A stretch of DNA of 62,355 nucleotides from a virus (Duplodnaviria > Caudoviricetes): positions 1 to 62,355 of the IMG/VR virus record IMGVR_UViG_3300030372_004273; one strand, 5' to 3'. Made by a program: the position numbers and the translations under genes. Below are positions 1-62,355 of the stretch, piece by piece; position 1 is the stretch's first letter; each line of letters begins with the position of its first letter. The notes below the pieces were generated by a model. That model did not search any database, was not told the DNA's origin, and was given only the letters and a program-made list of their open reading frames with translations.

Positions 1-1
1 C

Positions 2-78
2 TACTAAATTGCCAAAAAAATCATCTGGTTCTGGACTTACTTGTACAGACTCTTGCTCCTGTTCTTCTTCATCAGTCG
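2..78. repeat. 77-nt terminal direct repeat, copy 1 (assembly overlap of a circular or terminally redundant genome)
   Basis: TACTAAATTGCC...CATCAGTCG at 2-78 is identical to 62279-62355; base 1 (C) differs from 62278 (T). Confidence 0.95.
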
Positions 79-190
79 TTACATCTACTTCATAAAAAGC
101 ATCTTGTTGATCCTGTAGATCCATAATTTCAGCATCTGTTTCAGGAGCTCTATATAAAGCACGGTCAATGTTAGTTGGTTTCATAGCCAT
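2..190 (-). CDS. Portal protein, N-terminal 63 codons; continues across the junction into 62278..60122
   Basis: ATG at 190-188 overlaps the terL TGA; MAMKPTNIDRALYRAPETDAEIMD... stays in frame with the portal ORF after circularisation (781 aa in total). Confidence 0.88.
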   Translation of the reverse strand, partial: MAMKPTNIDRALYRAPETDAEIMDLQDQQDAFYEVDVTTDEEEQEQESVQVSPEPDDFFGNLV

Positions 191-1659
191 CAGTAATAAA
201 TCCTCTCTCTTGGTACTGGATCATCATCTTCATAATCACTTGGGTGAGTTATAAAACCACCCTCTCTAAATCTTCGTAGAGCCTGTGTCACCGTATCAAC
301 ATAATCATCATTTTCTCCTGCAGGAAATTGAGCACACTCTTCAATCACCTCTTCAGACCAACGAGACTCTGGAGCCCATACTAACCCACTTTCTAGCAAA
401 GGTGCAACAGAATTTACTCGCATGTGTTTATCGTTACCTCTACTTGGGCTGTAGTTTGTTACTGGAACTCCCGTAGCTCTTAGCTCTTGGGTCAATGGCA
501 TACCTGAAGCTTTTGCTTCTATTAATACCATTTCTGGTTCCCAGTATTTATATTCTTCATAAGATATTCTTTTTAGTTCAGGAAAGTCCCATCGTCCACG
601 CTTGGCATCAACAAGAATAATGTTTGGTGCTTCACCTTCCTCTGGATAAAAAACTCCCCAAGTTGTTATCGCACTATAATCAGCAGATTCCTTTTTGCTA
701 TATGCAGTATCATAACTCTGCATTATATATTGTAAAGGGGGTAAATCTTCCTTTTCCCATTTTTTCCACCACTCACGTTTCAAAATCGCGGCTGACTCAC
801 TAGTGGGGTTTTGTTGCCATTGGGCTTCCCATTTACCTATAGACAAACTACCCTTTACAGCTAATAAGTCTTTCTTGTTCCAAAACTCACCCCACAAAGG
901 TTCATTAGTTTCAGGCATCAAAGCAGGGAACTCAACTACTTCCCATTGGTCTGCCAATATATCTCTGCCTTGTTGCTTTAATAATTTACCAGTCAAATCA
1001 TTTTCAGCCCAACGTGTCATCACGATTACTATTGAACCTCCTGGCTGTAAACGCTGTCTAGGTCCAGAAGTGTACCACTCATACGCATTTTCCATAGCAG
1101 TTGGCGATAAAGCATCTTGTTCGGAATGTGGGTCATCAATAATTAACAAGTCAGCACCTCGCCCTGTAACAGCACCCCCGACTCCTGCGGCGAAATATTC
1201 ACCTCCTGCACTCGTCTCCCAACGTCCTGCCGCTTGAGAATCTGCTCGTAACTGGACGTTTTGAAAAACCCTTGTATACTCAGAACTATTCATCAAGTTC
1301 CTTGTTTTACGACCAAATCTAAAAGCTAACTCGGCTGTGTGTGTTGTCTGCATAATTTTTAAAGTTGGCTTACGTCCCATCAACCAAGCAGGAAGTAAGT
1401 AACTCGCAAATTCAGATTTCGTATGTCTTGGTGGCATGTTCACGATTAAACGTTTCAACTCACCACGAGCTAGGCGATTGAATTTTTCCGACATAATAGC
1501 ATGGTGTCTGCCATGTATAAAATCAGACCAAACGCTTTGTACAAAAGTAAGGAAGTCTTCTTGGCAAGCTTCAGCTTCTTGCATGGACTTTGCCCTGTCT
1601 AACAAAAGAGCAAAATTCCTCAGTTTGTCTTCAGGCAATAGAGATAAATCCATAGTCAT
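190..1659 (-). CDS. terL: Terminase large subunit
   Basis: MPPRHTKS Walker A variant, LLIIDDP Walker B, VIVMTRW coupling motif, RNase H-like nuclease (SYDTA...NDDYVDT). Confidence 0.95.
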   Translation of the reverse strand: MTMDLSLLPEDKLRNFALLLDRAKSMQEAEACQEDFLTFVQSVWSDFIHGRHHAIMSEKFNRLARGELKRLIVNMPPRHTKSEFASYLLPAWLMGRKPTLKIMQTTHTAELAFRFGRKTRNLMNSSEYTRVFQNVQLRADSQAAGRWETSAGGEYFAAGVGGAVTGRGADLLIIDDPHSEQDALSPTAMENAYEWYTSGPRQRLQPGGSIVIVMTRWAENDLTGKLLKQQGRDILADQWEVVEFPALMPETNEPLWGEFWNKKDLLAVKGSLSIGKWEAQWQQNPTSESAAILKREWWKKWEKEDLPPLQYIMQSYDTAYSKKESADYSAITTWGVFYPEEGEAPNIILVDAKRGRWDFPELKRISYEEYKYWEPEMVLIEAKASGMPLTQELRATGVPVTNYSPSRGNDKHMRVNSVAPLLESGLVWAPESRWSEEVIEECAQFPAGENDDYVDTVTQALRRFREGGFITHPSDYEDDDPVPRERIYY

Positions 1660-1821
1660 AATTTTCTTATATATCGAAAATTTTCAAACGACAATGAACC
1701 TAATGAATTATTTTGAAAAAAGGGGTATACGATTTTAATAATTTTTTGATATACCACGAATCGCGGAAAACTTGCCACGCCCAAGGACATGGCTATGAAC
1801 GTCGTCAAAAATGGTGGGTAT

Positions 1822-1854
1822 AAAAAAAGGGCGTTAGGTGTTACCCTAACGCCC
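1822..1854 (-). terminator. Rho-independent terminator of the Asp/Glu-free gene
   Basis: Perfect 10-bp stem GGGCGTTAGG/CCTAACGCCC with a 6-nt loop, followed by T7 on the minus strand, just after the stop at 1868. Confidence 0.85.
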
Positions 1855-1867
1855 CCCAAGTACCTTT

Positions 1868-2338
1868 TTATTTGGTTGTTGGTTTAACTTGCAAAGTTAT
1901 AAAACCAACGCCCCAAGTGCTACTACTAGGGCTGTAACCACCATTTAACAGTGCTAATAAACAAATTGGGTTTTTTGCACTATGCCCCAATTTACTTGCA
2001 AAGCTTAAAGCACTACCAACATTTTTAAAAGGTTGGTTGCTGTTGGTTGGGTTAGTGCCAAACAATAAAGCATTTTGTATAGTTGCCCTAACACCGTTGC
2101 CCTTGCCACCATAACCAAATGGCGTTGCAGGTTTATTTGGTGTTGGGTTGGTAACAACGTTTTTATTTGGTACTACTACAACGTTGTTAATATTACCATT
2201 GGCATGGGTGTTTATAAACGCCCATAACATTGTATTAGTTACGCCAGTTTTACCAGTACCATTATTAGTTAATACTGGTGTTTTAGTTTGGTTTGCACCT
2301 TTATTGCTAGTGCTAGCATTTTTATTATTTTGTACCAT
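1868..2338 (-). CDS. Hypothetical protein of 156 aa with no Asp or Glu; paralog of 2790..3221
   Basis: ATG at 2338 with AAAGGGG RBS-like element and its own terminator; shares PFGYGG..GVR.TIQ, KLGHS.K.P.CL.AL..GGYSPSS.TW with the neighbouring ORF. Confidence 0.88.
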   Translation of the reverse strand: MVQNNKNASTSNKGANQTKTPVLTNNGTGKTGVTNTMLWAFINTHANGNINNVVVVPNKNVVTNPTPNKPATPFGYGGKGNGVRATIQNALLFGTNPTNSNQPFKNVGSALSFASKLGHSAKNPICLLALLNGGYSPSSSTWGVGFITLQVKPTTK

Positions 2339-2750
2339 TGTACGACCCCTTTGGGTTACCACCTAAACATAATTGTTTGGGCTTGCTTATATTATTACTA
2401 TACTTTTAATATACTTGTAAATAAAAAAATTAACTCCTTGACAACTTTTTTAAGGGACATTTGTATTGAGCGTATAGGTGTAAGGGACTCTCTTATGACT
2501 GGGACAATCCTTTACCGTAATGTGGTAAGTATTAAGATTGTCAGTATAAGTATTAGTATTAAAAACATATAAGCACTATAACCCAACAATTATAATTGAG
2601 TAGTCCTTGATTTTTATATTATTATGCGGATCAAGGATTTTCCTTGATGATAAATAGTGATACTCTAAGAGTGTCAACGCTAACGTTCACACTATGACAA
2701 GTCTTGTTCTCGGGAATGGGACAGTCCCTGATTCTCTTGAATGGGATGGG

Positions 2751-2781
2751 AAAAAAGGACGCCAGACATAGCCTGACGTCC
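2751..2781 (-). terminator. Rho-independent terminator of the paralog 2790..3221
   Basis: GGACGCCAG/CTGACGTCC imperfect stem followed by a T run on the minus strand. Confidence 0.7.
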
Positions 2782-2789
2782 CGATAGTA

Positions 2790-3221
2790 CTAGCCTTTGA
2801 CAACTAGTTTGATGTATGGAGTCATCCAAGTTTTACTGCTTGGTGAGTATCCACCATGCATCAAAGCATGCAAGCAATTAGGACGTTTCTTAGAGTGACC
2901 AAGCTTGGCAGACTTATCAAGTATAAGCCTTAACGACATAGAGCCGTCAATCCCTCTAAGCATCCAATCTTGGATGGTTTGCCTGACACCTCCGGACTGT
3001 CCGCCATAACCAAAGGGGACAGGCTTTGGATCGTCAAGTTTTACATTGTCAAGAGGTTGGATGTAGACGTTCGCGTCGTTGCCTCCTGCATGCTCGTTGA
3101 CAAATTGCCACACGTCGTCATAAGACAACTCTTTATCGGTGACTAGGAGCTCAGCCTTTACAACTTGAGCTTTGGACTTTGGTGCAGTCTTGACAACTGC
3201 CTTAGTTGACTTTTTAGCCAT
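2790..3221 (-). CDS. Hypothetical protein of 143 aa; paralog of 1868..2338
   Basis: Likely start MAKKSTK at 3221 after AGAAAGGAG RBS; same conserved C-terminal blocks as the Asp/Glu-free protein. Confidence 0.88.
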   Translation of the reverse strand: MAKKSTKAVVKTAPKSKAQVVKAELLVTDKELSYDDVWQFVNEHAGGNDANVYIQPLDNVKLDDPKPVPFGYGGQSGGVRQTIQDWMLRGIDGSMSLRLILDKSAKLGHSKKRPNCLHALMHGGYSPSSKTWMTPYIKLVVKG

Positions 3222-3366: not shown

Positions 3367-3487
3367 TCACGGAATCAAGGATTTTCATTTCCTCTCTTCT
3401 CTCAAGGGAATCAAGGATTTTCAAGGATCAAGGAAGATCAATGAATCAAAGATCAAAGAAGATCCTTGACGAACCGATGATCAAGGA
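3367..3487. repeat. Non-coding cluster of TCAAGGA / TC-NNN-GA motifs
   Basis: TCAAGGA at 3375, 3411, 3421, 3428, 3481; reverse TCCTTGA at 3463; variants TCACGGA 3367, TCAATGA 3438, TCAAAGA 3446 and 3453. Confidence 0.85.
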
Positions 3488-3496
3488 TTCTCTCTT

Positions 3497-3943
3497 TTAG
3501 GATGGGAGAATCTTTCTCTTTCCTGAATGGGATTGATGTGATAAGATATGATGCAAGAGTCCAGTCCAATCGTAGGGAGCAGGACATGTCCAGTCAGGGA
3601 GTGGTGGCTCATCTCCCGTCAATCCTTTTCCTAATAGAAGGCTCTTGTCACCCCTAAATAAATACAAGGTGCGAGCGGAAGGGAGCTTCGCCAAGTTCCA
3701 GACTTGTCCACCATTGAGAAAATACTGGGTCTGCCACGATATTTGATGTGGACGTAGATTTAAAGACTTTAGGGACTTTAAGTTACTCACCTTTAACTCA
3801 AGCCAAAAACTTTTGCCATTTTTTATGCCATGCACATCAGGGATTCCTGGCATAGCCCATGACTCAATTCTAGTCCAAAAGACACCTAACTCCTTTGTGC
3901 CTTCTCTTAAATCTTTCCATAATTTTGTTTCGGGATTACCCAT
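3497..3943 (-). CDS. PD-(D/E)xK nuclease, VRR-NUC / Holliday junction resolvase-like
   Basis: E...RIE...PGIPDV...FWLELK...LRPHQISW motif set. Confidence 0.8.
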   Translation of the reverse strand: MGNPETKLWKDLREGTKELGVFWTRIESWAMPGIPDVHGIKNGKSFWLELKVSNLKSLKSLNLRPHQISWQTQYFLNGGQVWNLAKLPSARTLYLFRGDKSLLLGKGLTGDEPPLPDWTCPAPYDWTGLLHHILSHQSHSGKRKILPS

Positions 3944-4323: not shown

Positions 4324-4893
4324 TTAATTATCTTTTGTTATCTGGTTTTTATGTTCTATAATTAAGTTATCTTGAGTTACTGCTTTGAGTGCAGGAAACT
4401 CATTTTGGAGTCGTTGAATTTCTTTCATAACTTCCTCCTTACTCATTTGATCTATCTTTCCATGCAGTATCTCTTTACGATCAATATAAAGTCCTGCCGC
4501 TTGACCTCTGCTTTTTTCAGCCGCGACTGCTGATGCGAAGTTCCCTGCTGTGATTGCCTGATCGCGAATTTCCGCGAGTTTTTTTACATGACCTTCAAAA
4601 GTCACTTCATATTTCTGTGCTAACTCTTGTTTGATTTCACGTATTCGCTCTACAACATGAGGGTAACGTCTGCCATCTAACAACTGCGAAGCAATAGCAT
4701 GAGCAGATGCGACTGAATATCCTGCACGAATCGCGGCTTCGGTCTGGGTTATGTCTTCACAAACATACAATCTAGCAAATTCTTCTTGCTTTGGAGTAAT
4801 TTGTTTTTCTTTACGAGGATTTGCAACTACATCAAGTTTTTCTTTGTGTGTTTTCTTTGCGAGTACCATAGATACTTTATATAATAGTACCAA
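4324..4893 (-). CDS. terS: Terminase small subunit (start may be 4869)
   Basis: ITPKQEEFARLY...TQTEAAIRAGYS...ASQLL HTH signature of TerS. Confidence 0.88.
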   Translation of the reverse strand: MVLLYKVSMVLAKKTHKEKLDVVANPRKEKQITPKQEEFARLYVCEDITQTEAAIRAGYSVASAHAIASQLLDGRRYPHVVERIREIKQELAQKYEVTFEGHVKKLAEIRDQAITAGNFASAVAAEKSRGQAAGLYIDRKEILHGKIDQMSKEEVMKEIQRLQNEFPALKAVTQDNLIIEHKNQITKDN

Positions 4894-5676: not shown

Positions 5677-6008
5677 GCTGACACCACTTTTTGAGTAACG
5701 TAATCAATTCTAGCTAAGTGATCTAAACGAGCACCACAAGCAAGTCTTTGGTTGACCCATTCCTCATGCTCTTGAATAATATCTTCAAAAGTTGTTTTAC
5801 GCTCAACTTCTGTATAACTATCACGCCAAGCTCTCATGTGGACATCAGGTTCACACTGATGCCATCCATTACTAGACATACATTCTGTATAATATACAGT
5901 AGTGAGAAGTACCTTAGGAGATTGCTGTAAGTCCTCAGGTTTAGGGACAGCTAATATATAACCACGATTAGCTTTATATTCTGTCACACTAGGTAAATAA
6001 TTTTCCAT
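5673..6008 (-). CDS. Hypothetical protein
   Basis: AAGGA RBS; first gene left of a divergent AT-rich intergenic region. Confidence 0.7.
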   Translation of the reverse strand: MENYLPSVTEYKANRGYILAVPKPEDLQQSPKVLLTTVYYTECMSSNGWHQCEPDVHMRAWRDSYTEVERKTTFEDIIQEHEEWVNQRLACGARLDHLARIDYVTQKVVSA

Positions 6009-15128: not shown

Positions 15129-15429
15129 TAACTGTTCCTTGCCTAATTAACTCTGCTTCAACTAACATTAAATAACGCCTGAGATCACGCACATCGTCGA
15201 TAATACCTTCTTTACGTTTGTCGGCTTGGGCTGATTTAAATATATCGTAGTGTTTATCCTCTACTTGTTTTTCTAGCCTGTCCCATTTACGAGCAAGCAT
15301 CATAAAAGCACCTACACCTCCTCGTTGTTTCCAACTATCGCCGTAGCTTTGCTCAGACACATGTAGCCCTTCAACATCATACAAGGCTACTCTTTCTACA
15401 ATTTTAATAATTTCACTTGGGTTTTTCAC
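15094..15429 (-). CDS. Nucleotide-modification-associated all-alpha (MazG/DUF1599-like) putative dNTP pyrophosphatase
   Basis: SYGDSWK.RG...RKWDRLE...DDVRDL..Y helical motif; adjacent to the thymidylate synthase homolog. Confidence 0.65.
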   Translation of the reverse strand: MKNPSEIIKIVERVALYDVEGLHVSEQSYGDSWKQRGGVGAFMMLARKWDRLEKQVEDKHYDIFKSAQADKRKEGIIDDVRDLRRYLMLVEAELIRQGTVSDYPKHSKQTR

Positions 15430-16603
15430 TTTTTCTGCCTTTCTTTGGTTTTATTGGATCATATAACTTTCTAGTTATCCACTCTACGCAAGCTTTTCTC
15501 CACGCTAGATCTTTAATGCTCTTTGCTGATTCTAGTGCATGGTATCTACCTCCTTCCCAAGCTTCTTTGTGTACTTCTTTTTGGTGTCTGTTTAAAAACA
15601 AACCCCACTCTTCTTTTTCGAATGTTTCTTTTTTACTTTCATCCTTATAAAAAGTATGAATTTCTCTAAAGTCAGCCATCTTTGCTCTTTTGTAATTAAA
15701 GTAACATTCCAACATGGGGACAGCTACCTCAGAAAAAATAGAGTTTTCAAACTGTACCTTTTTTAATTCATCTAAAACATCATACGTTTCTTTATCGTCC
15801 CATATTTTGAAAAAAGTATTTAACTCATCATCAAAAGTTGTAAACGAATCCATTATAGGCATTGGGTTATAACTCGTACCATCTTCACCTAAAGTTAAGT
15901 AAGGCTCGTAGTCTGGTGGCATATCTTTTAATCTTTCTAGTATATCAACATAAGCGTGAAGATTATTACTAAATTGAGTATAAGTACCAACACCTAACTC
16001 TAACCTTCCTGCAAAGTATTCTTGAAGCATAGACATGTGAACAGCGTTTGCACCATACGCTCCCCAAATTAAATCATTACTACGATTTACTACTGTCATG
16101 TTAAGTAGGTCTTTTCTTTCACTAAAAAATATTTGAGTATTACATGGGTAGTCTTTACCATTGTTTGTTTCAACTAAATCTTTTACTGGATCCCACATTG
16201 TTAAAACTGTACGTCTGTCGTTTGGAAAAGAAAGCAACCTTTCTATTACTCTATCAAACTGATCATAGCCAAACCATTTTCTCCACCTATAACCATAAGC
16301 ACCATGATACGTTATACCATCGTCTGAGTATTGGTTCATGCGTCCATTAAAAGTATTTACAAACTGCACGTCATTACGTCCTGCTAACATCCATAAACTT
16401 TCCATAAAATGGAAAAAAGGGTTAGCGTCCCGTTGTGGATAAAACAATACTCTTTCTCTTGGGTGAGTATAAGTAGTGGTAACTGGACCAGGAAACTCTA
16501 AAACATCACCACCACGAGTACTTACAGCTACCCCATTCTCTTCTAAGGACTGTTTTACTACAAAAAGTGCTTCGCTTACGTTCCTAACATAAAAATTATA
16601 CAT
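15413..16603 (-). CDS. Thymidylate synthase-fold dUMP hydroxymethylase-like protein
   Basis: NPFFHFMESLWMLAGRND, GAYG.RWR, DYPCN catalytic Cys, RSNDLIWGAYGAN (Asn at the base-specificity position, indicating dUMP), NNLHAY, plus a C-terminal extension ending WRKACVEWI. Confidence 0.82.
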   Translation of the reverse strand: MYNFYVRNVSEALFVVKQSLEENGVAVSTRGGDVLEFPGPVTTTYTHPRERVLFYPQRDANPFFHFMESLWMLAGRNDVQFVNTFNGRMNQYSDDGITYHGAYGYRWRKWFGYDQFDRVIERLLSFPNDRRTVLTMWDPVKDLVETNNGKDYPCNTQIFFSERKDLLNMTVVNRSNDLIWGAYGANAVHMSMLQEYFAGRLELGVGTYTQFSNNLHAYVDILERLKDMPPDYEPYLTLGEDGTSYNPMPIMDSFTTFDDELNTFFKIWDDKETYDVLDELKKVQFENSIFSEVAVPMLECYFNYKRAKMADFREIHTFYKDESKKETFEKEEWGLFLNRHQKEVHKEAWEGGRYHALESAKSIKDLAWRKACVEWITRKLYDPIKPKKGRKSEKPK

Positions 16604-16682: not shown

Positions 16683-17990
16683 TTAAACGGAGTCATTTTT
16701 TGGCTCTATTGGGTCAATATTAAAAAACTGCAAGTTTTTATTACATTTTTGAAAAACTAGGTCATCTACTTCACCTTTGTCTGTTTTTTCATAACCACCA
16801 TTAATAAAGTCAATATATTTTTGTGCTACATTTACTTTATCAAACTGAGGTAAAATCTGTTTTCCGTTTTCTTGCAACTTTAACCACCTGACTTTTACTG
16901 TTACAGCATCGTCTACTATGTCTGCAAATTCTTGAGGAGTAGAATCGTGTGGTATTTGAATATAGTTTTGTTTATCACCCTGACTATGAAAAGGATGTTT
17001 TACTTTTTGAGATGAAGTTATCATACCTAAGTCTGTTGCCATTGGAACAGCACCACAAATAATCGCTTCTACAGTTGTTCTATTAAAATGGGATCCGAAC
17101 CCTGAATATTTAACCGACCAACTTGGATCAATTTGTACACGAGCGTTTTTTAAAATAGAAAAAACTTTTTCGTTTGGTAAAACTCCTGCATAATGCATTC
17201 CGTGTTCTAAAGCATTATCCCAAATACGAGTACCATCAGGTTCAAAGTACTTTTCTTTACACTTATCTTTACTTGTCATGTACCTATATTCAATCCCTGC
17301 TCCACCAACTATTTTGCTTTGCTCATTTTTCATATAAGAGATTGCTCTTACTAAAGTATCCATACGTTTCCAAGCTTTGAATATTTGTACTGCAACCAAA
17401 CCAGTCCTTTCTTCAAATGAATTTAAGTTTTCTTGGGTAACATCAAAAGGGTTACATATCATAGTGCGAGGTAAATCCATTTTAGCAGAAGATTCATAAG
17501 CTGAGTTATGTACACAAACAGAGCCGATAAAGTGTTTTGAAACTTTTGCTAAGTGAGGATACAAATGAGGTAAGTTACCATCATGTATGATAGCTATGTT
17601 TTTAGTTCCATTATCATAAAGTTCTAACCACTCCTTAACACCTTCATTATCTTTATTTAACGTAGGTACTGGAATATGCCAAAGGACAGCATCATACTTA
17701 CCCATATCATGCACAAAGTTTTTTCTATGGTAAGAACTTAGATATGGTATCTTTGGTACTCTAATCCAACCTCTTGCTTGGTGGTGTGGATATCCAGTAC
17801 CTTCAAGCTTTGTAGTGTATTCCCTTATATCTTTAGGTAGCTTTCGCATAGGAGTATACTTGTCTCTAGGGATAAGCATACGGAAATCAACTTCATGTCC
17901 TAACTCTTTTAGCCCTTGAGCTAAAAACTCTACATGATTTATAATACCACCATAATCTTGAATCTGATACATTGTCATAAGTATTCTCAT
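16683..17990 (-). CDS. GT-B fold glycosyltransferase (GT4-like), putative DNA-modifying
   Basis: MRILM...YGGI..H...LA.GL..LGHEV N-terminus; KAWKR.D.LVRA; TTVEAIICGAVPMATD donor-binding segment. Confidence 0.8.
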   Translation of the reverse strand: MRILMTMYQIQDYGGIINHVEFLAQGLKELGHEVDFRMLIPRDKYTPMRKLPKDIREYTTKLEGTGYPHHQARGWIRVPKIPYLSSYHRKNFVHDMGKYDAVLWHIPVPTLNKDNEGVKEWLELYDNGTKNIAIIHDGNLPHLYPHLAKVSKHFIGSVCVHNSAYESSAKMDLPRTMICNPFDVTQENLNSFEERTGLVAVQIFKAWKRMDTLVRAISYMKNEQSKIVGGAGIEYRYMTSKDKCKEKYFEPDGTRIWDNALEHGMHYAGVLPNEKVFSILKNARVQIDPSWSVKYSGFGSHFNRTTVEAIICGAVPMATDLGMITSSQKVKHPFHSQGDKQNYIQIPHDSTPQEFADIVDDAVTVKVRWLKLQENGKQILPQFDKVNVAQKYIDFINGGYEKTDKGEVDDLVFQKCNKNLQFFNIDPIEPKNDSV

Positions 17991-18910
17991 AGTACTGCTC
18001 CCTCAGGTGGTTTTTGGAAAAGGTCATCTTGCTTACCATTATATCTACTTCGTGGTTTACCCTCCCCATTTTTTACTCGTATATACTTATCAAACTCACA
18101 AAGGCTATGTTCAATGGTTCGCATATCTACTTGGTCTTTTGGACCAAACCTAAAAGGCAAATGATCTTGAGCTTCGTATAATAGAGTTTGCATTTCTAAG
18201 TTAGCTTGAGTTTGTGAAAGCGACTTTTTTAAATCTCTCTTGTATAACCTATTCAGTCCCCTCTTTGCTCCTGGTCCTGCGTTAGCCCAAGTATAACGGT
18301 CTTTTGCCGTCCCCAAAACAGACGTGTAGTTGAGGTCGGTAACGACTTCGTATGACATAAAGCCTCCCCCTCCCCATCCCCTAAACTTACCCATCGCTTC
18401 ATGCGTGGCTTGTAACGACTGCGTTTCTTGGGATACCTTCGCCAGATCTTCTTTCGCTTTCCATATCGGGATGAGAAACTCATCTACAACAACCTCAGAT
18501 TTAGGTTTCTTTATACCTTGATTAGTAATTATATATGCTCCAGTAAAAGTTCGTAAACCTTCGTGTAACCTTTTTTCTAAAATAAATTTAGTTGATTCAG
18601 GTTCCCAATCTTTTACCCAACCATGCTCTTCAGCAAACTCACTTGTACCTATCATTCTAAACAAACAACAGTTAAATATAATTTCAGCAGGAGGACGATT
18701 GTCATTTGGTTTAGTCCAGTTCTGACGCATCCAAACTGTTACCCTATCATTTTCCCTAAACGGATTTGTAAATTTATAATCCCTTAATATGGGGTCGTAA
18801 GTCCAAGGAGGAGGCTTTCCTGCACTCCTCACTTTGAACATGTTATGGCGTTCATCTATCCAATAGAAAAACTTTTCAACCATACTTTCATCTAATAACT
18901 CACTAACCAT
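17987..18910 (-). CDS. 5hmdU DNA kinase-like protein (aGPT-Pplase1, helical glycosylase-like fold)
   Basis: FFYWIDERH...PPPWTYDPILRDYKFTNPFRENDRVT, FTGAYII, FMSYEVVTDL, GPGAKRGL, IEHSLCEFDKY.R. Confidence 0.85.
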   Translation of the reverse strand: MVSELLDESMVEKFFYWIDERHNMFKVRSAGKPPPWTYDPILRDYKFTNPFRENDRVTVWMRQNWTKPNDNRPPAEIIFNCCLFRMIGTSEFAEEHGWVKDWEPESTKFILEKRLHEGLRTFTGAYIITNQGIKKPKSEVVVDEFLIPIWKAKEDLAKVSQETQSLQATHEAMGKFRGWGGGGFMSYEVVTDLNYTSVLGTAKDRYTWANAGPGAKRGLNRLYKRDLKKSLSQTQANLEMQTLLYEAQDHLPFRFGPKDQVDMRTIEHSLCEFDKYIRVKNGEGKPRSRYNGKQDDLFQKPPEGAVL

Positions 18911-21043: not shown

Positions 21044-22564
21044 TTATCTGCCAGATAAATTAAAACCTTGACTAAACATAGGATGCACTAAATGTAGGTT
21101 TTGCTGTGCTCTAGTCAACCCTACATAAAATACTCTTACTTCATCTTCTTCAAATGTATTTATTTTTCTCCACATAGAATAAGGTCTACGCATCGTATCT
21201 GTTAACATTAAAACATTAGTAGCTTCTGCTCCTTTTGCAGAGTGTATAGTTGAAATCCTAATTCGTGGTTCACGAGTAAGTGACTCACCTTTTCTTAAAC
21301 AAGCTTTTAAATATGCCTTATCTGTTTTTGATATTTTACCTAATCCTTCATCCCATGAAAGGCTATGCAACAACCCATGTTGTTGACGTAATTCTTCCAT
21401 TGAATAAAAAACACCCTCTTTACCATCAGGCATTGTTTTTTGTCCATAAGCAACTTCTGCATTCAAAAGCATAAATTTGTATATGTTTCTTACTTGATCG
21501 GCTGTTATTTTACCACCTTCTCTTAAATGTTCCCACAACTTAACTGCTTCAATAACTTTACTGTCTAAACTTTTAGAGCCATTGTAAATATACAAATGTC
21601 CTCTACGTCTTACCTCTTCTTCTATTTGTAATGCTCCCCTTGTAGTACGACTTAATAATAGCCAATCACCTTGTGATAAATCAACTTTTTCTGAATGGGA
21701 ATGCCACATGATAGTACCTTGCTCCTCCTTTGGAGCAAACGGTTTTTCGTGCCTAGATACCAACTTTTTTATTACTTGATTAGAAAGTTCATGGTGCTTT
21801 GCAGGAATTCTATAGCTTTTATCTAACAAAATTATTTCCCCTTGTAGATTCAAAAAATGTTGAACATCAGCTCCTGCATATCTAAAAATAGCTTGGTCAT
21901 CATCTCCTGCAATATATACCTTATCAGAATTTTTTATGAGTAAATTAACCATTTCCCATTGAATGGGTGAAAGGTCTTGGGCTTCATCTATAAACAAAAC
22001 TTCTAGCTTGGGGGAAAGGCTTCTATCAATGAACACCTCTAACATATCTGTATAGTCATATAATCCAAACTTGTTTTTGAAATGTTTTAACCCTCTACTA
22101 ACATAGTCTACTCTAGCCCAATCTGTTTTGAGTGGTACAATACTTTCATTGTAAACTTTTCTCAAAGGTTGACGAAGTATCCTCGACATACCTATTATTT
22201 CTAAAAACTTATCACCATAACCAAAGTCTTTGTAAGGTGTTTGTTGCATACTAGAATCATTGTAAAAGCTACCTATTTTCAACCACTCTGATATTTCTTT
22301 ATATTTTTCTGCATTCATAATTTGATTATGATTTAATCCTGCTTGGAAAAAAGCAAGACTGTGTAATGTTCTAAAATAAGGTAACTCTTTTTTAGTAAGC
22401 TTAAACTCTACACATGCTCTATCAATCGCTTCAGTCGCGGCTCGTCTAGTAAAAGCAAAGTACCCTATTTTATCAGGCGATACTCCTGCTGTAAGGTATT
22501 GCCTAACTAGACTAAGTAACTTGGTTGTTTTTCCAGTTCCAGGAGGACCAAGTACAATGTTCAT
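21044..22564 (-). CDS. UvrD/Rep-like superfamily 1 helicase
   Basis: GPPGTGKT, TLHS, DEAQD, GDDDQAIF, SYR, STIHSAKGAE, YVGLTRA. Confidence 0.93.
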   Translation of the reverse strand: MNIVLGPPGTGKTTKLLSLVRQYLTAGVSPDKIGYFAFTRRAATEAIDRACVEFKLTKKELPYFRTLHSLAFFQAGLNHNQIMNAEKYKEISEWLKIGSFYNDSSMQQTPYKDFGYGDKFLEIIGMSRILRQPLRKVYNESIVPLKTDWARVDYVSRGLKHFKNKFGLYDYTDMLEVFIDRSLSPKLEVLFIDEAQDLSPIQWEMVNLLIKNSDKVYIAGDDDQAIFRYAGADVQHFLNLQGEIILLDKSYRIPAKHHELSNQVIKKLVSRHEKPFAPKEEQGTIMWHSHSEKVDLSQGDWLLLSRTTRGALQIEEEVRRRGHLYIYNGSKSLDSKVIEAVKLWEHLREGGKITADQVRNIYKFMLLNAEVAYGQKTMPDGKEGVFYSMEELRQQHGLLHSLSWDEGLGKISKTDKAYLKACLRKGESLTREPRIRISTIHSAKGAEATNVLMLTDTMRRPYSMWRKINTFEEDEVRVFYVGLTRAQQNLHLVHPMFSQGFNLSGR

Positions 22565-24117
22565 TAGATGATATTGTCAGGTGAATTTAGTTTAGGTAGT
22601 GGCATCTCTTTTTCCTCCGTTTCAAAATGCTCTTGTGGCATTGACCATACATGTACACCTTTACCTCTAACTCGCCAAAACTTTTTTTCTGCTTCAAGCT
22701 GTTGAAGTCTTAGTGTTATTTTGTTAGAAGTATAATGGTTAAAATCATTTACGGACAAATGCTTTTTTATATCTTTTACTTGGAAATAAACTCTGCCATC
22801 TAACCATACAGCTACTCCCTGCAAGATATCCTCACGCTCTTCACCCCTTGCTCTTTCACATGCAAATGCATGAAGTAAATCTTCAAACTCACCACGAAAA
22901 GTAGCATCAGGTGGTACTTCAATAATTGTTACATTATCTAACAAAGTTTGTATTCTAGTTTGCCATGCTCTTTGGTTTACTGAAACTGGAAACTTATTTA
23001 TTTGTGAAACACATTCTTTTTGAAATTGTGTTTGAGTAGTTAATCCTCCAGTTGTTAACTCTACACGCTCTCCATCTACATTCAATATCCAAATAGGTGG
23101 ATCACCATCTATTTTAGTTAAGCTACTTAAATCATTACGAGTAGAAGCAGGACCAACCCCATACTTTCTACCTTTACATAACTCTTTATCACAAAAAGGT
23201 TTAATAGGTTGGTCATCACATTTGTAAAAATACTCTTTCTTTTTCAATTGTCTTATTACTGCTCCAACTTCTGAATGACTTAGTGGAGGAGTTAGGTAAT
23301 CCATATTATATTTTTGTACAAGCGTTTCCCAATTTTCTTCATCAAATAAACGAGCATATACTCCTAAATTAAACAAACCATTGTTGCGTGAACCTTGAGG
23401 AAAGTTCATTGATATAAGTCTCTGTAAACATGGAGGACCATCTGTTAAAACATCTTTACTTGTTCCAAAAGATAAGTCAAGTTTACTTAATTCTTTTGGT
23501 GAGATGATAAATTTTTTACAATGTTCTATAAACTGTTCGGGGGATAAAACTTCACCATTGTATGGATTAAAACCATAGCGAGTGCTGTTCTTACCTGAAT
23601 GGTAGGGCATATTTAAAAAATTTCCAGTGTCTCCTCTATCTAATAATATTTCAGATTGTTTTGGAAATATTTCACTACCTGAAAAACCAAGTGCTGAAGA
23701 TAGTTCCGTCATAACTCTTTGTAATTCACTTGCTTCTATAGGCTCATTCAAAAACAACCATATATGAGCTCCACCACTTTTAGTCCTACCAACAACAGCA
23801 GGAACTTTAGCTTCTTTGAGTGAATTAACAATTTGTTTATGATCTATATCATACTTATCAATATCAATAGCACCCCATTGACAAGTATTATCACTACGAA
23901 TTGGTATTATTCCTAATCCAGTACCACCCTTTAAATGCTCTTCCCACATTTCTAAAGTAGTAGATTCTCTTATAATCTTAGCGTAACCTTGCTTTTTAGC
24001 ATCACTTTGTCTGTTTGATTTTACAACAAAAGTGCCATGAGCAATATCACTACCTTTGAATAAGTTAAAAAATTCTTGTGCTAAAGACATACTTTTTCCT
24101 TTAAAAGTGAGAGCCAT
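22564..24117 (-). CDS. Primase, AEP-like with PriCT-type region (start possibly 24090)
   Basis: WGAIDID, TKSGGAHIW, FPKQ, GNFLNMPY; PPCL...GSRNNGLFNLG C-terminal region. Confidence 0.8.
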   Translation of the reverse strand: MALTFKGKSMSLAQEFFNLFKGSDIAHGTFVVKSNRQSDAKKQGYAKIIRESTTLEMWEEHLKGGTGLGIIPIRSDNTCQWGAIDIDKYDIDHKQIVNSLKEAKVPAVVGRTKSGGAHIWLFLNEPIEASELQRVMTELSSALGFSGSEIFPKQSEILLDRGDTGNFLNMPYHSGKNSTRYGFNPYNGEVLSPEQFIEHCKKFIISPKELSKLDLSFGTSKDVLTDGPPCLQRLISMNFPQGSRNNGLFNLGVYARLFDEENWETLVQKYNMDYLTPPLSHSEVGAVIRQLKKKEYFYKCDDQPIKPFCDKELCKGRKYGVGPASTRNDLSSLTKIDGDPPIWILNVDGERVELTTGGLTTQTQFQKECVSQINKFPVSVNQRAWQTRIQTLLDNVTIIEVPPDATFRGEFEDLLHAFACERARGEEREDILQGVAVWLDGRVYFQVKDIKKHLSVNDFNHYTSNKITLRLQQLEAEKKFWRVRGKGVHVWSMPQEHFETEEKEMPLPKLNSPDNII

Positions 24118-43402: not shown

Positions 43403-45066
43403 GCTTCCTCCAGTGCTTTAACTTTGGCTTCTAGTGTTTCTATTCTTGTCATTGCTTCTTGTAAGGCTTTAACTGCTTTCATGTAAAGAATACTATCTTT
43501 AACATTTTTAACATTTGACTTTACTTCTTTAACATCACCATCTTCATTTAAAGTTCCAAACTCCGAACTATGTTTTATTTCTTGTGCTTCTGGTGGAGTT
43601 TCAAAAACTAAATTAGGACAAACTTTTTCTACATCTTGTGCAACTAAACCTAGCTGTTTTAAATCTGGATTATCAAATTTAGTAAAGTTCTTAAACTTTA
43701 ATGCCTTTATATCTTCCCATTGTGATTTAGCATCTACTATATCAGACTTTAATCTTTCATCAGAAAATGAAGTATAAGTTCCAGTTGAGTTTTTAAGTGT
43801 TCCACTAGAAAATATTTTCATCCTACCATTACCTTGTGAAACACATGATAGAAAATAGTTGTCAGTATTATTTACGTTTACATTTGGAAATTCTATGTAA
43901 ACTCCATAAGGTGCTGAACTATGAAGATTTTGAAAATATTGTGCTACTGAATTTCTTGTGTTTTTAAAAATTGAATATTCATTTAAAATAGAAGCTATTG
44001 TAGTAAGAGTTGCATTTTGTCCTGCATTTACGTTTGCTGAATATTGATAATGAAAAACTCCAGAAGTATCTATATTAATAGCACTACCAGCACCATTTTC
44101 TTTAGCTACCCAACTACTTCCATTATAGTATCTATTTTTAACTATGTATAAAGAACCACCATCATACTCACCATAAAATGCTTGATCACCTACATCTACA
44201 CCTTTCATATTTGTGTCGTGTGAATAGGTAGCACCATTTTCAACACCAATACCATTAGCTGTAGTTTCTAATTTTTTAACATCATCATAGTAAAGACTAA
44301 CTGCACCATCAGCTACAGCATTTATCATGGTTTCTCCAGTATACTTGTGCATAGTTACTCGGCTACTTCTTATAAATAAAGAACCATCATCAGCTTCATC
44401 TATAAATGAACCAGTACCAGGAGTATGATATATCTGTAAATCATTACCAGTGCCTACTTTAATTTTAGCATTATCCGGAAGGTTAACCCCACCACTATGA
44501 GTTGTAGCTCCAGTAAAAGTTCCACCAGTGCTAGCAGGGACTGTGTCAGCTAATTGTACTGTATTATATGCTAATACAACCAACTCATCACTTGTTGTAG
44601 CTCCTGATCCTAATACAACAGAAGTACCATTCGTAGCTGTGTAGTCTGTTTGATCTAAACGCACCCCATTTAAAAATACATCAATATCTTCAACAGTATA
44701 AGAAAGTGTTAAACCATTAGAGTCTTCTCCTGAAAAAGTTTGCTGACCATTAGTAGCTACGTATCTATATCGTATAATTCTTTTATAATTAGTAGCAACA
44801 TCAACAGACCTACCTAAATAACGTATAATAATATTATCACCGTTTGCAGGAGGTCCAGTGAAAGTAATTGTATTACCAGAAGCTGTATAAGCTCCTGCTA
44901 TACCTTGATGAGTAGGTTGTTGAACAACATTACCAACTAATACAATTATACTTTGACCATCAGGAACTGTTTGGTCTAATGTAAAACTTGTAGCAGAACC
45001 ATTTGCACTCGTTATAATTTGAGTTGCTACTGTTCCTGCGTTTGGTGATACTCCTATATATGCCAT
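43399..45066 (-). CDS. Tail fibre with peptidase S74 chaperone
   Basis: MAYIG.SP start; DVFLNGVRL..TDYTATNGTSV; SDERLKSDI...LGLVAQDVE...RIETLE. Confidence 0.85.
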   Translation of the reverse strand: MAYIGVSPNAGTVATQIITSANGSATSFTLDQTVPDGQSIIVLVGNVVQQPTHQGIAGAYTASGNTITFTGPPANGDNIIIRYLGRSVDVATNYKRIIRYRYVATNGQQTFSGEDSNGLTLSYTVEDIDVFLNGVRLDQTDYTATNGTSVVLGSGATTSDELVVLAYNTVQLADTVPASTGGTFTGATTHSGGVNLPDNAKIKVGTGNDLQIYHTPGTGSFIDEADDGSLFIRSSRVTMHKYTGETMINAVADGAVSLYYDDVKKLETTANGIGVENGATYSHDTNMKGVDVGDQAFYGEYDGGSLYIVKNRYYNGSSWVAKENGAGSAINIDTSGVFHYQYSANVNAGQNATLTTIASILNEYSIFKNTRNSVAQYFQNLHSSAPYGVYIEFPNVNVNNTDNYFLSCVSQGNGRMKIFSSGTLKNSTGTYTSFSDERLKSDIVDAKSQWEDIKALKFKNFTKFDNPDLKQLGLVAQDVEKVCPNLVFETPPEAQEIKHSSEFGTLNEDGDVKEVKSNVKNVKDSILYMKAVKALQEAMTRIETLEAKVKALEEA

Positions 45067-45785
45067 TATGATCTTATTCCATATAAACTAAATTTACCTT
45101 GATTAATATTACCACTATTAGCTGTGAACTTTAGATTATTTATTTTTGTTCTATCACTGTTTGATGAGCCTATAATTTTTGCACCACCAGTCCACCAGTA
45201 GTCGTTGCCAGTATTATGACCACCATCATTATCATGTGCATTATGACAACTAAAATACATTGCTTTAAAACCAGTAGTTTGTCTTAATCCAATAAAATTT
45301 ATATCTGCACTAAGACCTTTGTTTGCAGTATTTTCTGTGCCAGCACCTATTTGTACTTTAGCTTCACTATTTCCATTTGTTCCTGCAGTACCAGAAGCAA
45401 GAGATGCCTTTAAATCTGCATAAGTCATATGTTGCTCAATAAATATATCATAAGTTGAACCATTATTATCTGATGGATGAACAAAAAGTGCTTGTCCATT
45501 TGTTACTGGTGCATAATTCCTTATAACAACTTTGTAATCCATATAAGTATCTGTAATATGGCTAGATGTAAAAGTTACTGCAGATTGATTAGATGCAGTT
45601 ATTGTATGTATTAAAGCAAAGTCAGAAGCAACTTTAGTTGCTTCAATCCCTGCACTTGCATTAACTTCTGTGTTTGTAACAGCTCCTGCTCCAATCTTTG
45701 CATTAGTTACAGCATCATCAACTATTTTAGCTGTAGTTATTGAATTGTCAGCTATTAAATTTGCACTTATTGTTGATAATGCCAT
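45066..45785 (-). CDS. Tail fibre-like protein
   Basis: ITTAKI/VTNAKI repeats; GKFSLYGI end. Confidence 0.7.
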   Translation of the reverse strand: MALSTISANLIADNSITTAKIVDDAVTNAKIGAGAVTNTEVNASAGIEATKVASDFALIHTITASNQSAVTFTSSHITDTYMDYKVVIRNYAPVTNGQALFVHPSDNNGSTYDIFIEQHMTYADLKASLASGTAGTNGNSEAKVQIGAGTENTANKGLSADINFIGLRQTTGFKAMYFSCHNAHDNDGGHNTGNDYWWTGGAKIIGSSNSDRTKINNLKFTANSGNINQGKFSLYGIRS

Positions 45786-62278: not shown

Positions 62279-62355
62279 TACTAAATTGCCAAAAAAATCA
62301 TCTGGTTCTGGACTTACTTGTACAGACTCTTGCTCCTGTTCTTCTTCATCAGTCG
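62279..62355. repeat. 77-nt terminal direct repeat, copy 2
   Basis: Identical to positions 2-78. Confidence 0.95.

What the first reader, a model, noticed from the sequence alone, without database searches (positions are those of the whole stretch)
1868..3221. Tandem paralog pair: one Asp/Glu-free copy and one copy that uses Asp/Glu
Seen: 1868..2338 and 2790..3221 share PFGYGG..GVR.TIQ, KLGHS.K.P.CL.AL..GGYSPSS.TW..I.L.VK, and each has its own RBS and terminator. Acidic residues of the second copy are replaced in the first (VNEHAGGND vs INTHANGNI; PLDNV vs PNKNV; TIQD vs TIQN). The second copy uses TC/GA freely, but I found only two GAA/TTC trinucleotides in it (near 2887 and 3070), although GAA/TTC looks common elsewhere. 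I do not recognise the family. Inference: a two-stage arrangement in which a compromised but modification-independent copy is made first and a less constrained copy takes over. The conserved His/Cys/Gly-Tyr-Ser-Pro core could bind modified DNA, RNA polymerase or a defence protein.
Basis: partly seen in the sequence, partly recalled or inferred. Interest (0 to 1): 0.85.

Follow-up and report, generated by a model that had tools for sequence, protein, structure and literature searches.

The report
Phage gene purged of GA/TC dinucleotides
In an abundant group of marine phages that chemically modify their own thymines, one small gene, from promoter to terminator, has lost every GA and TC dinucleotide (and so every acidic amino acid), while its neighbouring twin is ordinary; this probably keeps that one gene free of the phage's own DNA modification.

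Summary
B (1868-2338, minus strand) and A (2790-3221, minus strand) are paralogs: 47% identity, E 2e-32. B lies in a 631-bp island (1805-2435) with one GA/TC where about 65 are expected. No other dinucleotide-free island exists in this 62-kb phage genome. The avoidance is at nucleotide level: recoding B's own protein with genome codon usage gives 29.5±4 GA/TC, and 0 are observed. It is under ongoing selection. Equivalent islands of 0.6-1.2 kb occur in related marine phages with GC 36-55%.

The phage is an HTVC023P-type relative that carries a 5-hmdU DNA kinase thymidine-hypermodification cassette. The A/B family co-occurs with that cassette. Published work shows that such hypermodification is dinucleotide-specific, at TG/TC (PMC6449724, PMC13458397).

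Best reading (about 0.45): TpC is this group's modification context, and B is a modification-free transcription unit. B's protein function is unknown; it is basic, with a weakly winged-helix-like fold. "Made first" is untested. Some cassette-bearing relatives have no island.

The parts
1805..2435 (.). GA/TC-free island: 631 bp with a single TC at 2344. It covers the promoter region, 5' UTR, gene B and its terminator.
   Evidence: Searches give the positions of all GA/TC. One search gives log10 P -20.4 and shows it is the only dinucleotide-free island in the genome. CA/TG is not depleted (0.137 in the island, 0.128 in the genome) and island GC is 0.363 against 0.358 for the genome.
1868..2338 (-). 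Gene B: 156 aa, no Asp/Glu, pI 10.6, 25 Asn. It is the GA/TC-free paralog.
   Evidence: Codon use: Ser 11 AGY to 0 TCN, and no GGA, ATC, TTC, GTC, CTC, AGA or CGA. Recoding simulation gives 29.5±4.0 expected GA/TC against 0 observed. dN/dS is 0.06-0.11. AF2 model has pLDDT 74.9 and the same order of secondary-structure elements as A.
1826..1857 (-). Intrinsic-terminator-like hairpin after B (13 pairs plus a T run), itself free of GA/TC.
2339..2435 (-). 5' UTR and promoter region of B. It contains the RBS AAAGGGG, a hairpin at 2362-2381 and a TTTACA -35-like hexamer near 2421. The promoter assignment is tentative.
   Evidence: sequence; hairpin. My own sigma-70 scan did not score a near-consensus promoter here. 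Orthologous B genes do have clear ones: TTGACT-17-TATAAT in L025 and TTGCAA-17-TATATT in L028, read by eye.
2790..3221 (-). Gene A: 143 aa, 13 Asp/Glu, pI 9.6. It is the ordinary paralog with 52 GA/TC, GC 0.458 against 0.358 for the genome, and only two GAA/TTC.
   Evidence: AF2 model has pLDDT 85.9.
2756..2782 (-). Intrinsic-terminator-like hairpin after A.
2603..2648 (.). Cluster of 3 ATCCTTGAT-like repeats between A's terminator and B's promoter.
   Evidence: All 4 exact copies in the genome lie in this cluster or in the one at 3374-3488.
3374..3488 (.). Cluster of 8 ATCCTTGAT-like repeats, several overlapping GATC, upstream of A. The function is unknown; an operator or a pac-like site are guesses.
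3497..3943 (-). Nuclease-like gene, conserved directly upstream of the pair.
   Evidence: PHROG 2165 E 2.5e-19 and phrog_93 endonuclease E 1.3e-6. Synteny is shown.
4324..4893 (-). Terminase small subunit.
   Evidence: PF03592, E 2.4e-13.
190..1659 (-). Terminase large subunit, directly downstream of B.
   Evidence: (67% nt identity to HTVC027P terL).
15413..16603 (-). Thymidylate-synthase homolog, the presumed dUMP hydroxymethylase of the hypermodification cassette.
   Evidence: PF00303 E 3.2e-18 and phrog_5131 E 1e-106. The hydroxymethylase role is inferred from PMC5889632.
17987..18910 (-). 5-hmdU DNA kinase (HMUDK_hel / aGPT-Pplase1-type).
   Evidence: PF18723, E 5.7e-53, 180 bits against a cut-off of 25.
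16683..17990 (-). 435-aa cassette gene, possibly a glycosyltransferase.
   Evidence: Only a sub-threshold GT4 hit, E 0.017. It is conserved in G001, G003 and G004 but not found in G002.

Best explanation
B and A are two old paralogs of a small, basic protein family found only in phages. They sit between terS and terL of an HTVC023P-type marine podovirus relative. Both are functional genes.

Selection acting on DNA has removed the dinucleotide TpC from both strands (seen as GA/TC) across B's whole transcription unit, from promoter to terminator. This cost the protein every Asp and Glu.

The most likely reason is that TpC is the sequence context in which this phage group installs its thymidine hypermodification, a pathway that starts with the 5-hmdU DNA kinase. 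If so, the island is the one stretch of the chromosome with no hypermodified base on either strand. B then stays transcribable by host RNA polymerase, or invisible to anything that reads the modification, whatever the modification state of the rest of the genome. A is the ordinary, modifiable copy.

Shown here: the paralogy; the nucleotide-level purge and its maintenance by selection; its conservation; the presence of the cassette and its co-occurrence with the family.

Inferred: that the avoided agent is the phage's own modification (my estimate about 0.55); that the benefit is expression from incoming, fully modified DNA (about 0.3); and that the protein binds nucleic acid.
For: **Nucleotide level, not protein level**
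- 0 GA/TC over 539 bp against 0.103 per base genome-wide.
- B's own D/E-free protein, recoded with genome codon usage, gives 29.5±4.0 GA/TC, with a minimum of 14 in 20,000 simulations.
- Ser is 11 AGY to 0 TCN in B, against 2 to 9 in A. All NTC and NGA codons and all codon-junction GA/TC are absent.

**Both strands, and beyond the transcript**
- GA and TC are both absent from the sense strand, so TC is absent from both DNA strands.
- The island extends upstream of the start codon and through the terminator, in the window and in 10 other loci.

**Ongoing selection**
- The W and L001 islands differ by 39 substitutions, and W and L003 by 43. None creates GA/TC.
- 33% of random substitutions, and 35.5% of synonymous ones, would create GA/TC. 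0.67^39 is about 2e-7 (my arithmetic).
- In near-complete purges the residual GA/TC equal the retained D/E codons: L015 3 and 3, L025 2 and 2, L028 5 and 5.

**Conservation**
- 15 of the 25 loci L001-L030 that reach the B position have 7 or fewer GA/TC in B, while A always has 0.10-0.155 per base.
- Further islands: 715-735 bp (L049-52), 719 and 829 bp (L071, L072), at least 562 bp (L063), and 678 to about 1200 bp at GC 0.55 (L073, log10 P -34).
- Depleted and partly depleted B genes form one clade with 100/99 support.
- 40 of 94 family representatives have 1 or fewer D/E.

**Link to hypermodification**
- The window carries a TS homolog and HMUDK.
- HMUDK was found in all 9 records holding the family that are at least 43% complete, G000-G008.
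- The two cultured or deposited relatives without HMUDK also lack the family.

**Precedent**
- In M6, ViI and phiW-14, restriction-resistant sites share TG/TC, and the authors propose that the kinase prefers T-S dinucleotides (PMC6449724; abstract and passages).
- In Acinetobacter phage SH-Ab 15599 the modification is mostly at TG and less at TC (PMC13458397; abstract and passages).
- 5-hmdU is converted 'in sequence-specific contexts' (PMC8989533, passage).
Against: - No modification has been mapped in any member of this phage group, so TpC specificity is inferred from the island itself. That is partly circular.
- The published contexts are TG, or TG plus TC. In the island CA/TG is not depleted, so this kinase would have to be TC-only.
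- Complete, cassette-bearing G001 has no island: the B-position gene has 40-41 GA/TC in the three G001-type loci L004-L006. L010 and L014 (30-36) are also not depleted. L018 and L021 (28-29), L027 (13) and L029 (16) are only partly depleted. The exemption is therefore dispensable in some lineages.
- No gene's presence or absence tracks depletion among G000-G004.
- M6-like phage PAE1 (whole genome) and phiW-14 (100,000 of 157,486 bases) have no dinucleotide-free island. The family is absent from 50,697 deposited phage records, although HMUDK is in 226 of them.
- Nothing shows when B is expressed, and a clear sigma-70 promoter was not scored in the window itself.
- The co-occurrence counts are phylogenetically non-independent.
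Confidence: 0.45

Rival explanations
1. The island evades a host (or phage) nuclease or restriction-like activity whose short recognition contains GA/TC. It would work in the manner of the first-entering, site-free early region of T7 that encodes Ocr. B would lie on the leading end of a stepwise-injected podovirus genome and encode an anti-defence protein.
For: - The phage group are podoviruses (PMC9599517 abstract; preprint 10.1101/2019.12.14.876532, passages).
- B is an insulated single-gene unit with its own promoter and terminator.
- The block containing B (about 1828-2574) is 4-12 times more diverged at synonymous sites than its flanks. Depleted and non-depleted alleles occur in otherwise close relatives, for example L015 and L018. 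This is typical of arms-race cassettes.
- Depletion varies between lineages, as host-dependent pressure would predict.
- Island lengths of 0.6-1.2 kb resemble the roughly 850 bp that T7 internalises first; that figure is recalled, not from a call.
Against: - No nuclease with plain GA/TC dinucleotide specificity is known to me.
- Common palindromic 4-mers such as AGCT, GTAC, CATG and CTAG remain in the island.
- Genome ends are unknown. The contig is a circular assembly with a 77-nt overlap, and only contigs, not raw reads, could be laid.
- B has no acidic residues, so it is not an Ocr-like DNA mimic.
- The family tracks the modification cassette.
Confidence: 0.2
2. A/B proteins, or another phage DNA-binding factor, coat or silence DNA through GA/TC-containing sites, whether modified or not. 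B's unit is purged so that its own expression escapes this binding.
For: - Both proteins are basic: pI 9.6 and 10.6.
- The fold is weakly winged-helix-like.
- GA/TC-rich repeat arrays (ATCCTTGAT here; GATGATGA and ATCAATCATC in relatives) flank both genes in all lineages inspected.
Against: - No DNA-binding evidence exists, and the fold matches are only Z 3-5.2.
- A dinucleotide is too short to be a protein operator.
- It does not explain why A, the paralog, is not purged.
Confidence: 0.1
3. RNA-level immunity: B's mRNA lacks GA and UC so that it survives an endoribonuclease, in the way ACA-less mRNAs escape MazF.
For: The purged stretch runs through the terminator and 5' UTR, so it roughly matches the transcript.
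Against: - Two different dinucleotides that are reverse complements of each other are both absent. This is what a double-strand DNA feature predicts, not an RNase site.
- The purge continues roughly 50-150 bp upstream of likely transcription starts, for example 146-166 bp upstream of the start codon in L049.
- All other phage mRNAs carry GA/UC at normal density.
Confidence: 0.06
4. Mutational erosion rather than selection: a TC-directed cytosine deaminase acting on this highly transcribed unit converted TC to TT and GA to AA.
For: - B is rich in Asn (25), and several D-to-N replacements are seen.
- Synonymous divergence in the block is elevated.
Against: - Conserved Ser codons switched from TCN to AGY, a change deamination cannot make.
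- D/E were replaced by T, I, K, S, L, A and P as well as N.
- The substitution spectrum between island alleles is mixed: 22 of 39 are transitions.
- Once TC is gone, a TC-specific mutator cannot explain continued high divergence.
- The diverged block (to about 2574) overshoots the island edge at 2435, which fits allele exchange.
Confidence: 0.04
5. The protein itself must be free of acidic residues (for example for extreme basicity), and the codon pattern is secondary.
For: 40 of 94 family representatives have 1 or fewer D/E.
Against: - A D/E-free protein would still carry about 30 GA/TC under genome codon usage.
- Non-coding flanks are purged too.
- Lineages that keep 2-5 D/E have purged everything else.
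Confidence: 0.02

Closest known systems
Dinucleotide-specific thymidine hypermodification in phages M6, ViI, phiW-14 and SH-Ab 15599 (5-hmdU DNA kinase pathway)
   Same: The enzyme family is in the window (PF18723 HMUDK plus a TS homolog). Published data show the modification is placed by dinucleotide context, T followed by G or C (PMC6449724 and PMC13458397; passages read).
   Different: Those phages show mainly TG, whereas here only TC/GA is avoided. None of them is reported to have, or in my scan of PAE1 and 100 kb of phiW-14 has, a target-free island. The A/B family is absent from them.
Restriction-site avoidance and the first-entering early region of T7 with gene 0.3 (ocr) (recalled knowledge, not from a call)
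   Same: A short stretch holding an early, self-contained gene is kept free of the motif that would expose it. The logic is cis-acting exemption by absence of target.
   Different: Here the avoided word is a bare dinucleotide on both strands, which forces a change of proteome alphabet (no D/E). The likely agent is the phage's own modification rather than a host enzyme. The leading-end position is unknown. The product is basic, not an acidic DNA mimic.
ACA-less mRNAs that escape MazF (recalled knowledge)
   Same: A whole gene is recoded to lack a short word while keeping a functional protein.
   Different: That is strand-specific and RNA-level. Here both reverse-complementary words and the untranscribed promoter flank are purged.
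Winged-helix / RRE-like small domains (Fur, MecI/BlaI, MCM and RPA32 C-terminal WH, PqqD-like RRE)
   Same: Residues about 60-143 of the A model align to many such domains.
   Different: Z is only 3.1-5.2 with rmsd 2.5-4.3 Å, below the level the tool regards as meaningful. Foldseek found nothing in PDB or BFVD, and there is no sequence match to PDB or Pfam. No membership is claimed.

Membership tests
5-hmdU-kinase-type thymidine hypermodification system | Thymidylate-synthase-like dUMP hydroxymethylase | tested here: met
   15413-16603: PF00303 E 3.2e-18 and phrog_5131 E 1e-106. Hydroxymethylase rather than methylase activity is inferred, not tested.
5-hmdU-kinase-type thymidine hypermodification system | 5-hmdU DNA kinase (HMUDK_hel / aGPT-Pplase1) | tested here: met
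   17987-18910: PF18723 E 5.7e-53, 180.5 bits against a cut-off of 25.
5-hmdU-kinase-type thymidine hypermodification system | Downstream transferase that installs the final group | tested here: inconclusive
   The 435-aa neighbour has only a sub-threshold GT4 hit, E 0.017. The 234-aa neighbour has no hit.
5-hmdU-kinase-type thymidine hypermodification system | Hypermodified thymine present in virion DNA, in a defined dinucleotide context | not testable with these tools
   This needs LC-MS or native-DNA sequencing. Only assembled contigs were available.
Leading-end anti-restriction gene (T7 ocr-like) | Gene lies on the genome end that enters the cell first | not testable with these tools
   The assembly is circular with a 77-nt overlap. 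No raw reads were available and no molecule ends were reported.
Leading-end anti-restriction gene (T7 ocr-like) | Highly acidic DNA-mimic product | tested here: not met
   B has 0 D/E and pI 10.56.
Toxin-endoribonuclease-resistant (motif-less) mRNA | Avoidance confined to the sense strand and the transcript | tested here: not met
   GA and TC are both absent, and the purge extends upstream of the promoter-like region.
Winged-helix DNA-binding domain | Significant structural match to a solved WH domain | tested here: inconclusive
   Best WH-type rows have Z 3.4-4.0 and the best row overall has Z 5.2. Foldseek E is 2 or more.
HTVC023P-type marine podoviruses | Shared core genes and synteny with HTVC023P/HTVC027P | tested here: met
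   terL has 64.5-66.9% nt identity to HTVC023P, HTVC027P and 023Pt_psg01. The paper on this group reports TS plus aGPT-Pplase1 in clades V, VIII and IX (PMC9599517, passages). Which clade the window belongs to was not determined.

The most novel reading that the evidence does not exclude
The island is a genetically hard-wired blind spot in a self-modifying viral chromosome. Its missing word (TpC) directly reads out the sequence specificity of an uncharacterised thymidine hypermodification in one of the ocean's most abundant phage groups. B is a pioneer factor, made from the only modification-free template on the incoming DNA. It is needed to make the rest of the hypermodified genome usable or safe, and A supplies the same activity once unmodified progeny DNA exists. 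Target-free islands could then be used as a purely computational way to discover the modification motifs of uncultured viruses.
Probability: 0.25. Interest if true: 0.9.

Novelty: new variant of a known kind. Interest (0 to 1): 0.85.

Why it matters
Motif avoidance is well known, but two features here are, as far as my searches show, undescribed. One is a whole transcription unit with every occurrence of a dinucleotide removed from both strands. The other is a conserved protein that has consequently lost two of the twenty amino acids, next to an unconstrained paralog. My literature searches were made; none returned such a case. They cover open-access papers and bioRxiv only.

The feature occurs in relatives of the HTVC023P-type phages, which the preprint 10.1101/2019.12.14.876532 calls the most abundant known marine viral group (abstract).

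If the link to hypermodification holds, three things follow:
- It gives a testable prediction of the modification context (TpC) for uncultured phages.
- It shows that hypermodification has a cost that must be circumvented for at least one gene.
- It offers a natural experiment: graded alleles with 0, 2, 3, 5, 7, 13, 16, 28 and 40 sites, for measuring that cost.

It also defines a new phage protein family (94 clusters at 50% identity) tied to DNA modification.

Tried and rejected
**Function of A and B**
- Pfam and PHROGs gave no hit even at E 1 or less.
- A PDB sequence profile gave 0 hits at E 10 or less.
- Foldseek against PDB and BFVD gave nothing at E 0.001 or less.
- The ESM Atlas returned only unnamed viral clusters.
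- VIA-align gave only Z 5.2 or less.
- Complex prediction for A with B returned no verdict, which is evidence neither way.

**Expression and genome ends**
- The look-up of sequencing runs listed no RNA holder.
- The RNA run I laid gave one 164-nt contig over terL and a 35-nt piece of a 111-nt contig at 1406-1440, also in terL. Nothing lay over A or B.
- All runs were contigs, so no molecule ends, depth or strand information could be read.

**Promoters and motifs**
- My sigma-70 scan found no near-consensus promoter for B in the window.
- TCCCATYC-like motifs next to A and B are local, not a genome-wide promoter.

**Gene content**
- No ORF is present in the depleted genomes G000 and G002-G004 but absent from the non-depleted G001, or the reverse.

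**Generality**
- PAE1 (62,181 bp) and the first 100,000 of 157,486 bp of phiW-14 have no dinucleotide-free island. The rest of phiW-14 was not fetched.
- tblastn of A against 50,697 phage records found nothing.
- The P0143 scan found no locus.

**Rejected readings**
- A tRNA- or codon-level cause, because codon junctions and non-coding DNA are purged too.
- General palindrome or restriction-site avoidance, because AGCT, GTAC, CATG and CTAG remain.
- CRISPR PAM avoidance, because cleavage elsewhere would still kill the phage, and only TTC-type PAMs are known to me.

**Not seen**
- Supplements are closed. Supplementary Tables 1-3 of PMC6449724 and Data Set S1 of PMC9599517 (orthogroups) could bear on the TC context and on whether A/B were noted.
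Full report
**What is there**

The window is a complete, circularly assembled 62,355-bp phage contig. Its first and last 77 bases are identical. Nearly all genes are on the minus strand.

A nuclease-like gene (3497-3943) lies upstream of them. I call the ORF at 2790-3221 A (143 aa) and the ORF at 1868-2338 B (156 aa). They align with 54/116 identities, E 2e-32. Each has a purine-rich RBS and is followed by a strong terminator-like hairpin. B has no Asp or Glu (pI 10.6) and A has 13 (pI 9.6).

**The real anomaly is in the DNA**

From 1805 to 2344 there is no GA or TC dinucleotide on the plus strand, and therefore no TC on either strand. After a single TC at 2344 there is none again until 2435. 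GA/TC occurs 6,450 times in the genome (0.103 per base), and the next longest gap anywhere is 60 bp. A scan of all ten strand-symmetric dinucleotide classes puts this gap at log10 P about -20.4. The runner-up, a CG-free stretch, is at -3.9.

The island is not unusual in other respects:
- Its GC is 0.363 against 0.358 for the genome.
- CA/TG is 0.137 against 0.128, so it is not depleted.

The purge is not a by-product of the protein's composition:
- B's own protein, recoded with the genome's codon usage, carries 29.5±4.0 GA/TC. The minimum was 14 in 20,000 simulations; 0 are observed.
- Ser is encoded 11:0 by AGY in B, against 2:9 (AGY:TCN) in A.
- GGA, AGA, CGA, ATC, TTC, GTC and CTC are all unused.
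- No GA/TC arises across codon junctions.
- The terminator, the 5' UTR and about 50 bp upstream of any plausible transcription start are purged as well.

**Conservation and dynamics**

Thirty IMG/VR loci carry an A ortholog in the same terS-nuclease-A-B-terL order. Of these, 25 reach the B position.

| GA/TC in B | Loci |
|---|---|
| 7 or fewer | 15 loci |
| 13-16 | L027, L029, and L012 (cut) |
| 28-29 | L018, L021 |
| 34-41 | L004-6, L010, L014 |

A is always ordinary, at 0.10-0.155 GA/TC per base. Where the purge is nearly complete, the residual GA/TC are exactly the retained Asp/Glu codons: 3 and 3, 2 and 2, 5 and 5.

More distant family members sit in even larger islands:
- 715-735 bp in L049-52.
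- 719 and 829 bp in two complete genomes (L071, L072).
- At least 562 bp in L063.
- About 1.2 kb with three or fewer sites in L073, a contig with 55% GC (log10 P -34).

In four of the five complete or near-complete genomes I scanned whole, this is the only dinucleotide-free island. The fifth, G001, has none.

In a maximum-likelihood tree all depleted and partly depleted B genes form one clade (100/99), with the partly depleted ones nested inside it. The purge is therefore old and has relaxed several times. The non-depleted B-position genes of L004, L010 and L014 branch nearer the A clade. L004's B still shows an AGY-biased Ser usage of 8:3, against 0:9 in its A.

Selection is ongoing. The islands of the window and its close relatives L001 and L003 differ by 39 and 43 substitutions. 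None creates GA/TC, although 33% of random and 35.5% of synonymous single changes would.

B is a working gene, with dN/dS of 0.05-0.13. Yet the block that holds it (about 1828-2574) is far more diverged than its flanks:

| Pair of relatives | dS of B | dS of A |
|---|---|---|
| W and L001 | 0.28 | 0.055 |
| L015 and L018 | 1.2 | 0.17 |
| L028 and L029 | 0.57 | 0.047 |

The block overshoots the island edge by about 140 bp. I read this as exchange of B alleles between lineages.

**Genomic setting**

terL is 64.5-66.9% identical at nucleotide level to Pelagibacter phages HTVC027P and HTVC023P and to phage 023Pt_psg01. The group is described as extremely abundant marine podoviruses, and several of its clades carry thymidine-hypermodification genes (PMC9599517, abstract and passages; preprint 10.1101/2019.12.14.876532, abstract and passages).

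The window has this cassette: a thymidylate-synthase homolog (15413-16603) and a 5-hmdU DNA kinase (17987-18910, PF18723, E 5.7e-53).

- The kinase was found in all nine records with an A/B gene that are at least 43% complete, G000-G008.
- Two fragments, 22-25% complete, gave no match.
- HTVC027P and 023Pt_psg01 have neither the kinase nor the family.
- The family is not a general companion of the kinase. tblastn of A finds nothing in 50,697 deposited phage genomes, while the kinase is in 226 of them.

**The proteins**

A profile search of 1.84 billion representatives finds 94 clusters, all small proteins apart from two chance-looking long ones. Of these, 40 have one or no acidic residue and most of the rest have 7-17, so the family is bimodal. 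In one acid-free subfamily a single invariant Asp survives.

AlphaFold models are confident for A (pLDDT 85.9) and fair for B (74.9). Both show the same order of helices and strands and a disordered Lys/Thr-rich N-terminal tail. No significant structural or sequence relative exists. The best alignments are to winged-helix and RRE-like domains at Z 3-5.2. I therefore treat 'small basic nucleic-acid-binding protein' as a guess.

**How it most likely works**

A word that is absent together with its reverse complement, in coding and non-coding DNA alike, points to a double-stranded-DNA feature with dinucleotide specificity. The known process of that kind in phages with this cassette is the hypermodification itself:
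- 5-hmdU is converted 'in sequence-specific contexts' (PMC8989533, passage).
- Restriction-resistant sites in M6, ViI and phiW-14 share TG/TC, and the authors propose that the kinase prefers T-S dinucleotides (PMC6449724).
- In phage SH-Ab 15599 the modified base sits mainly at TG and less at TC (PMC13458397).

I therefore propose that TpC is the target context in this marine group, and that B's transcription unit is kept free of targets so that it is never modified. The graded series of alleles, and the retention of a few essential Asp/Glu codons, imply a per-site cost rather than an all-or-none effect. Why one gene needs this is inferred only.

**What speaks against it**

- No modification map exists for these phages.
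- The published contexts are TG-dominated, and TG is not avoided here.
- G001 and a few other cassette-bearing lineages manage without a purged copy.
- No gene's presence tracks depletion.
- PAE1 and phiW-14 (100 of 157 kb scanned) have no island.
- Expression timing and genome ends could not be read from the public data available here.

The rivals are weighed in the Rival explanations section. In brief:
- RNA-level immunity, mutational erosion and a protein-level need for an acid-free sequence are each contradicted by specific results above.
- Evasion of a host nuclease on a leading genome end, and escape from binding by a GA/TC-reading protein, remain open.

**Verdict**

I found no description of such a feature in five literature searches. 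I rate it as a new variant of motif avoidance, tied to a new phage protein family and, probably, to DNA hypermodification.

Noticed in passing
window 1-78 and 62279-62355: The first and last 77 bases of the contig are identical. It is therefore a circular or overlapping assembly of about 62,278 bp, and the physical ends are unknown.
   Followed up: partly
window 2603-2648 and 3374-3488: There are two clusters of ATCCTTGAT-like repeats, 3 and 8 copies, and many overlap GATC. They lie just upstream of B's and A's promoter regions, and all 4 exact copies in the genome are here. Relatives have different GA/TC-rich repeat arrays (GATGATGA, ATCAATCATC) at the same places. They could be operators or a pac-like site.
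   Followed up: partly
window 2790-3221: Gene A is much more GC-rich than the genome (0.458 against 0.358). It uses GAC/GTC heavily (24) and almost never GAA/TTC (2, against about 16 expected). The GAA/TTC scarcity is seen in some A orthologs (1-7) but not in others (10-16).
   Followed up: partly
window 1828-2574: The block holding B is 6-7.6% diverged from the near-identical relatives L001-L003, while terL, the nuclease gene and A differ by 0.2-1.9%. dS of B is 4-12 times that of A in three pairs of relatives. This suggests that B alleles are exchanged between lineages.
   Followed up: yes
L007:5692-5860, L025 about 5700-5800, and L010, L015, L027 between A and B: Several relatives carry a short ORF for a hydrophobic, single-pass-like peptide between A and B. 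In L007 it lies inside the GA/TC-poor zone.
   Followed up: no
window 2710-2746 and 3496-3507; same positions in relatives: A conserved TCCCATYC...GAGRA element follows A's terminator and precedes A's repeat array in all lineages inspected. It is local, not a genome-wide promoter motif.
   Followed up: partly
window 45203-46165: There is a 962-bp stretch without CG (log10 P about -3.9) within a run of genes (45066-46357 and neighbours) whose products share similar N-termini and look like tail-fibre-like paralogs.
   Followed up: no
window 22564-24117: The primase-like gene matches the AEP domain of the TOTE conflict system (PF22548, E 5.6e-20).
   Followed up: no
G003 (L042-L045) ends: This 60,123-bp IMG/VR contig repeats about 1.35 kb, including gene B, at both ends at 93-99% identity. 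It looks like a circular assembly that joined two population variants of the B block.
   Followed up: partly
L002:4659-4940: In one close relative the GA/TC-free island is 846-885 bp. The B reading frame is extended upstream by about 70 Asn/Lys/Phe-rich codons, which may be a second small acid-free ORF or an in-frame insertion.
   Followed up: no
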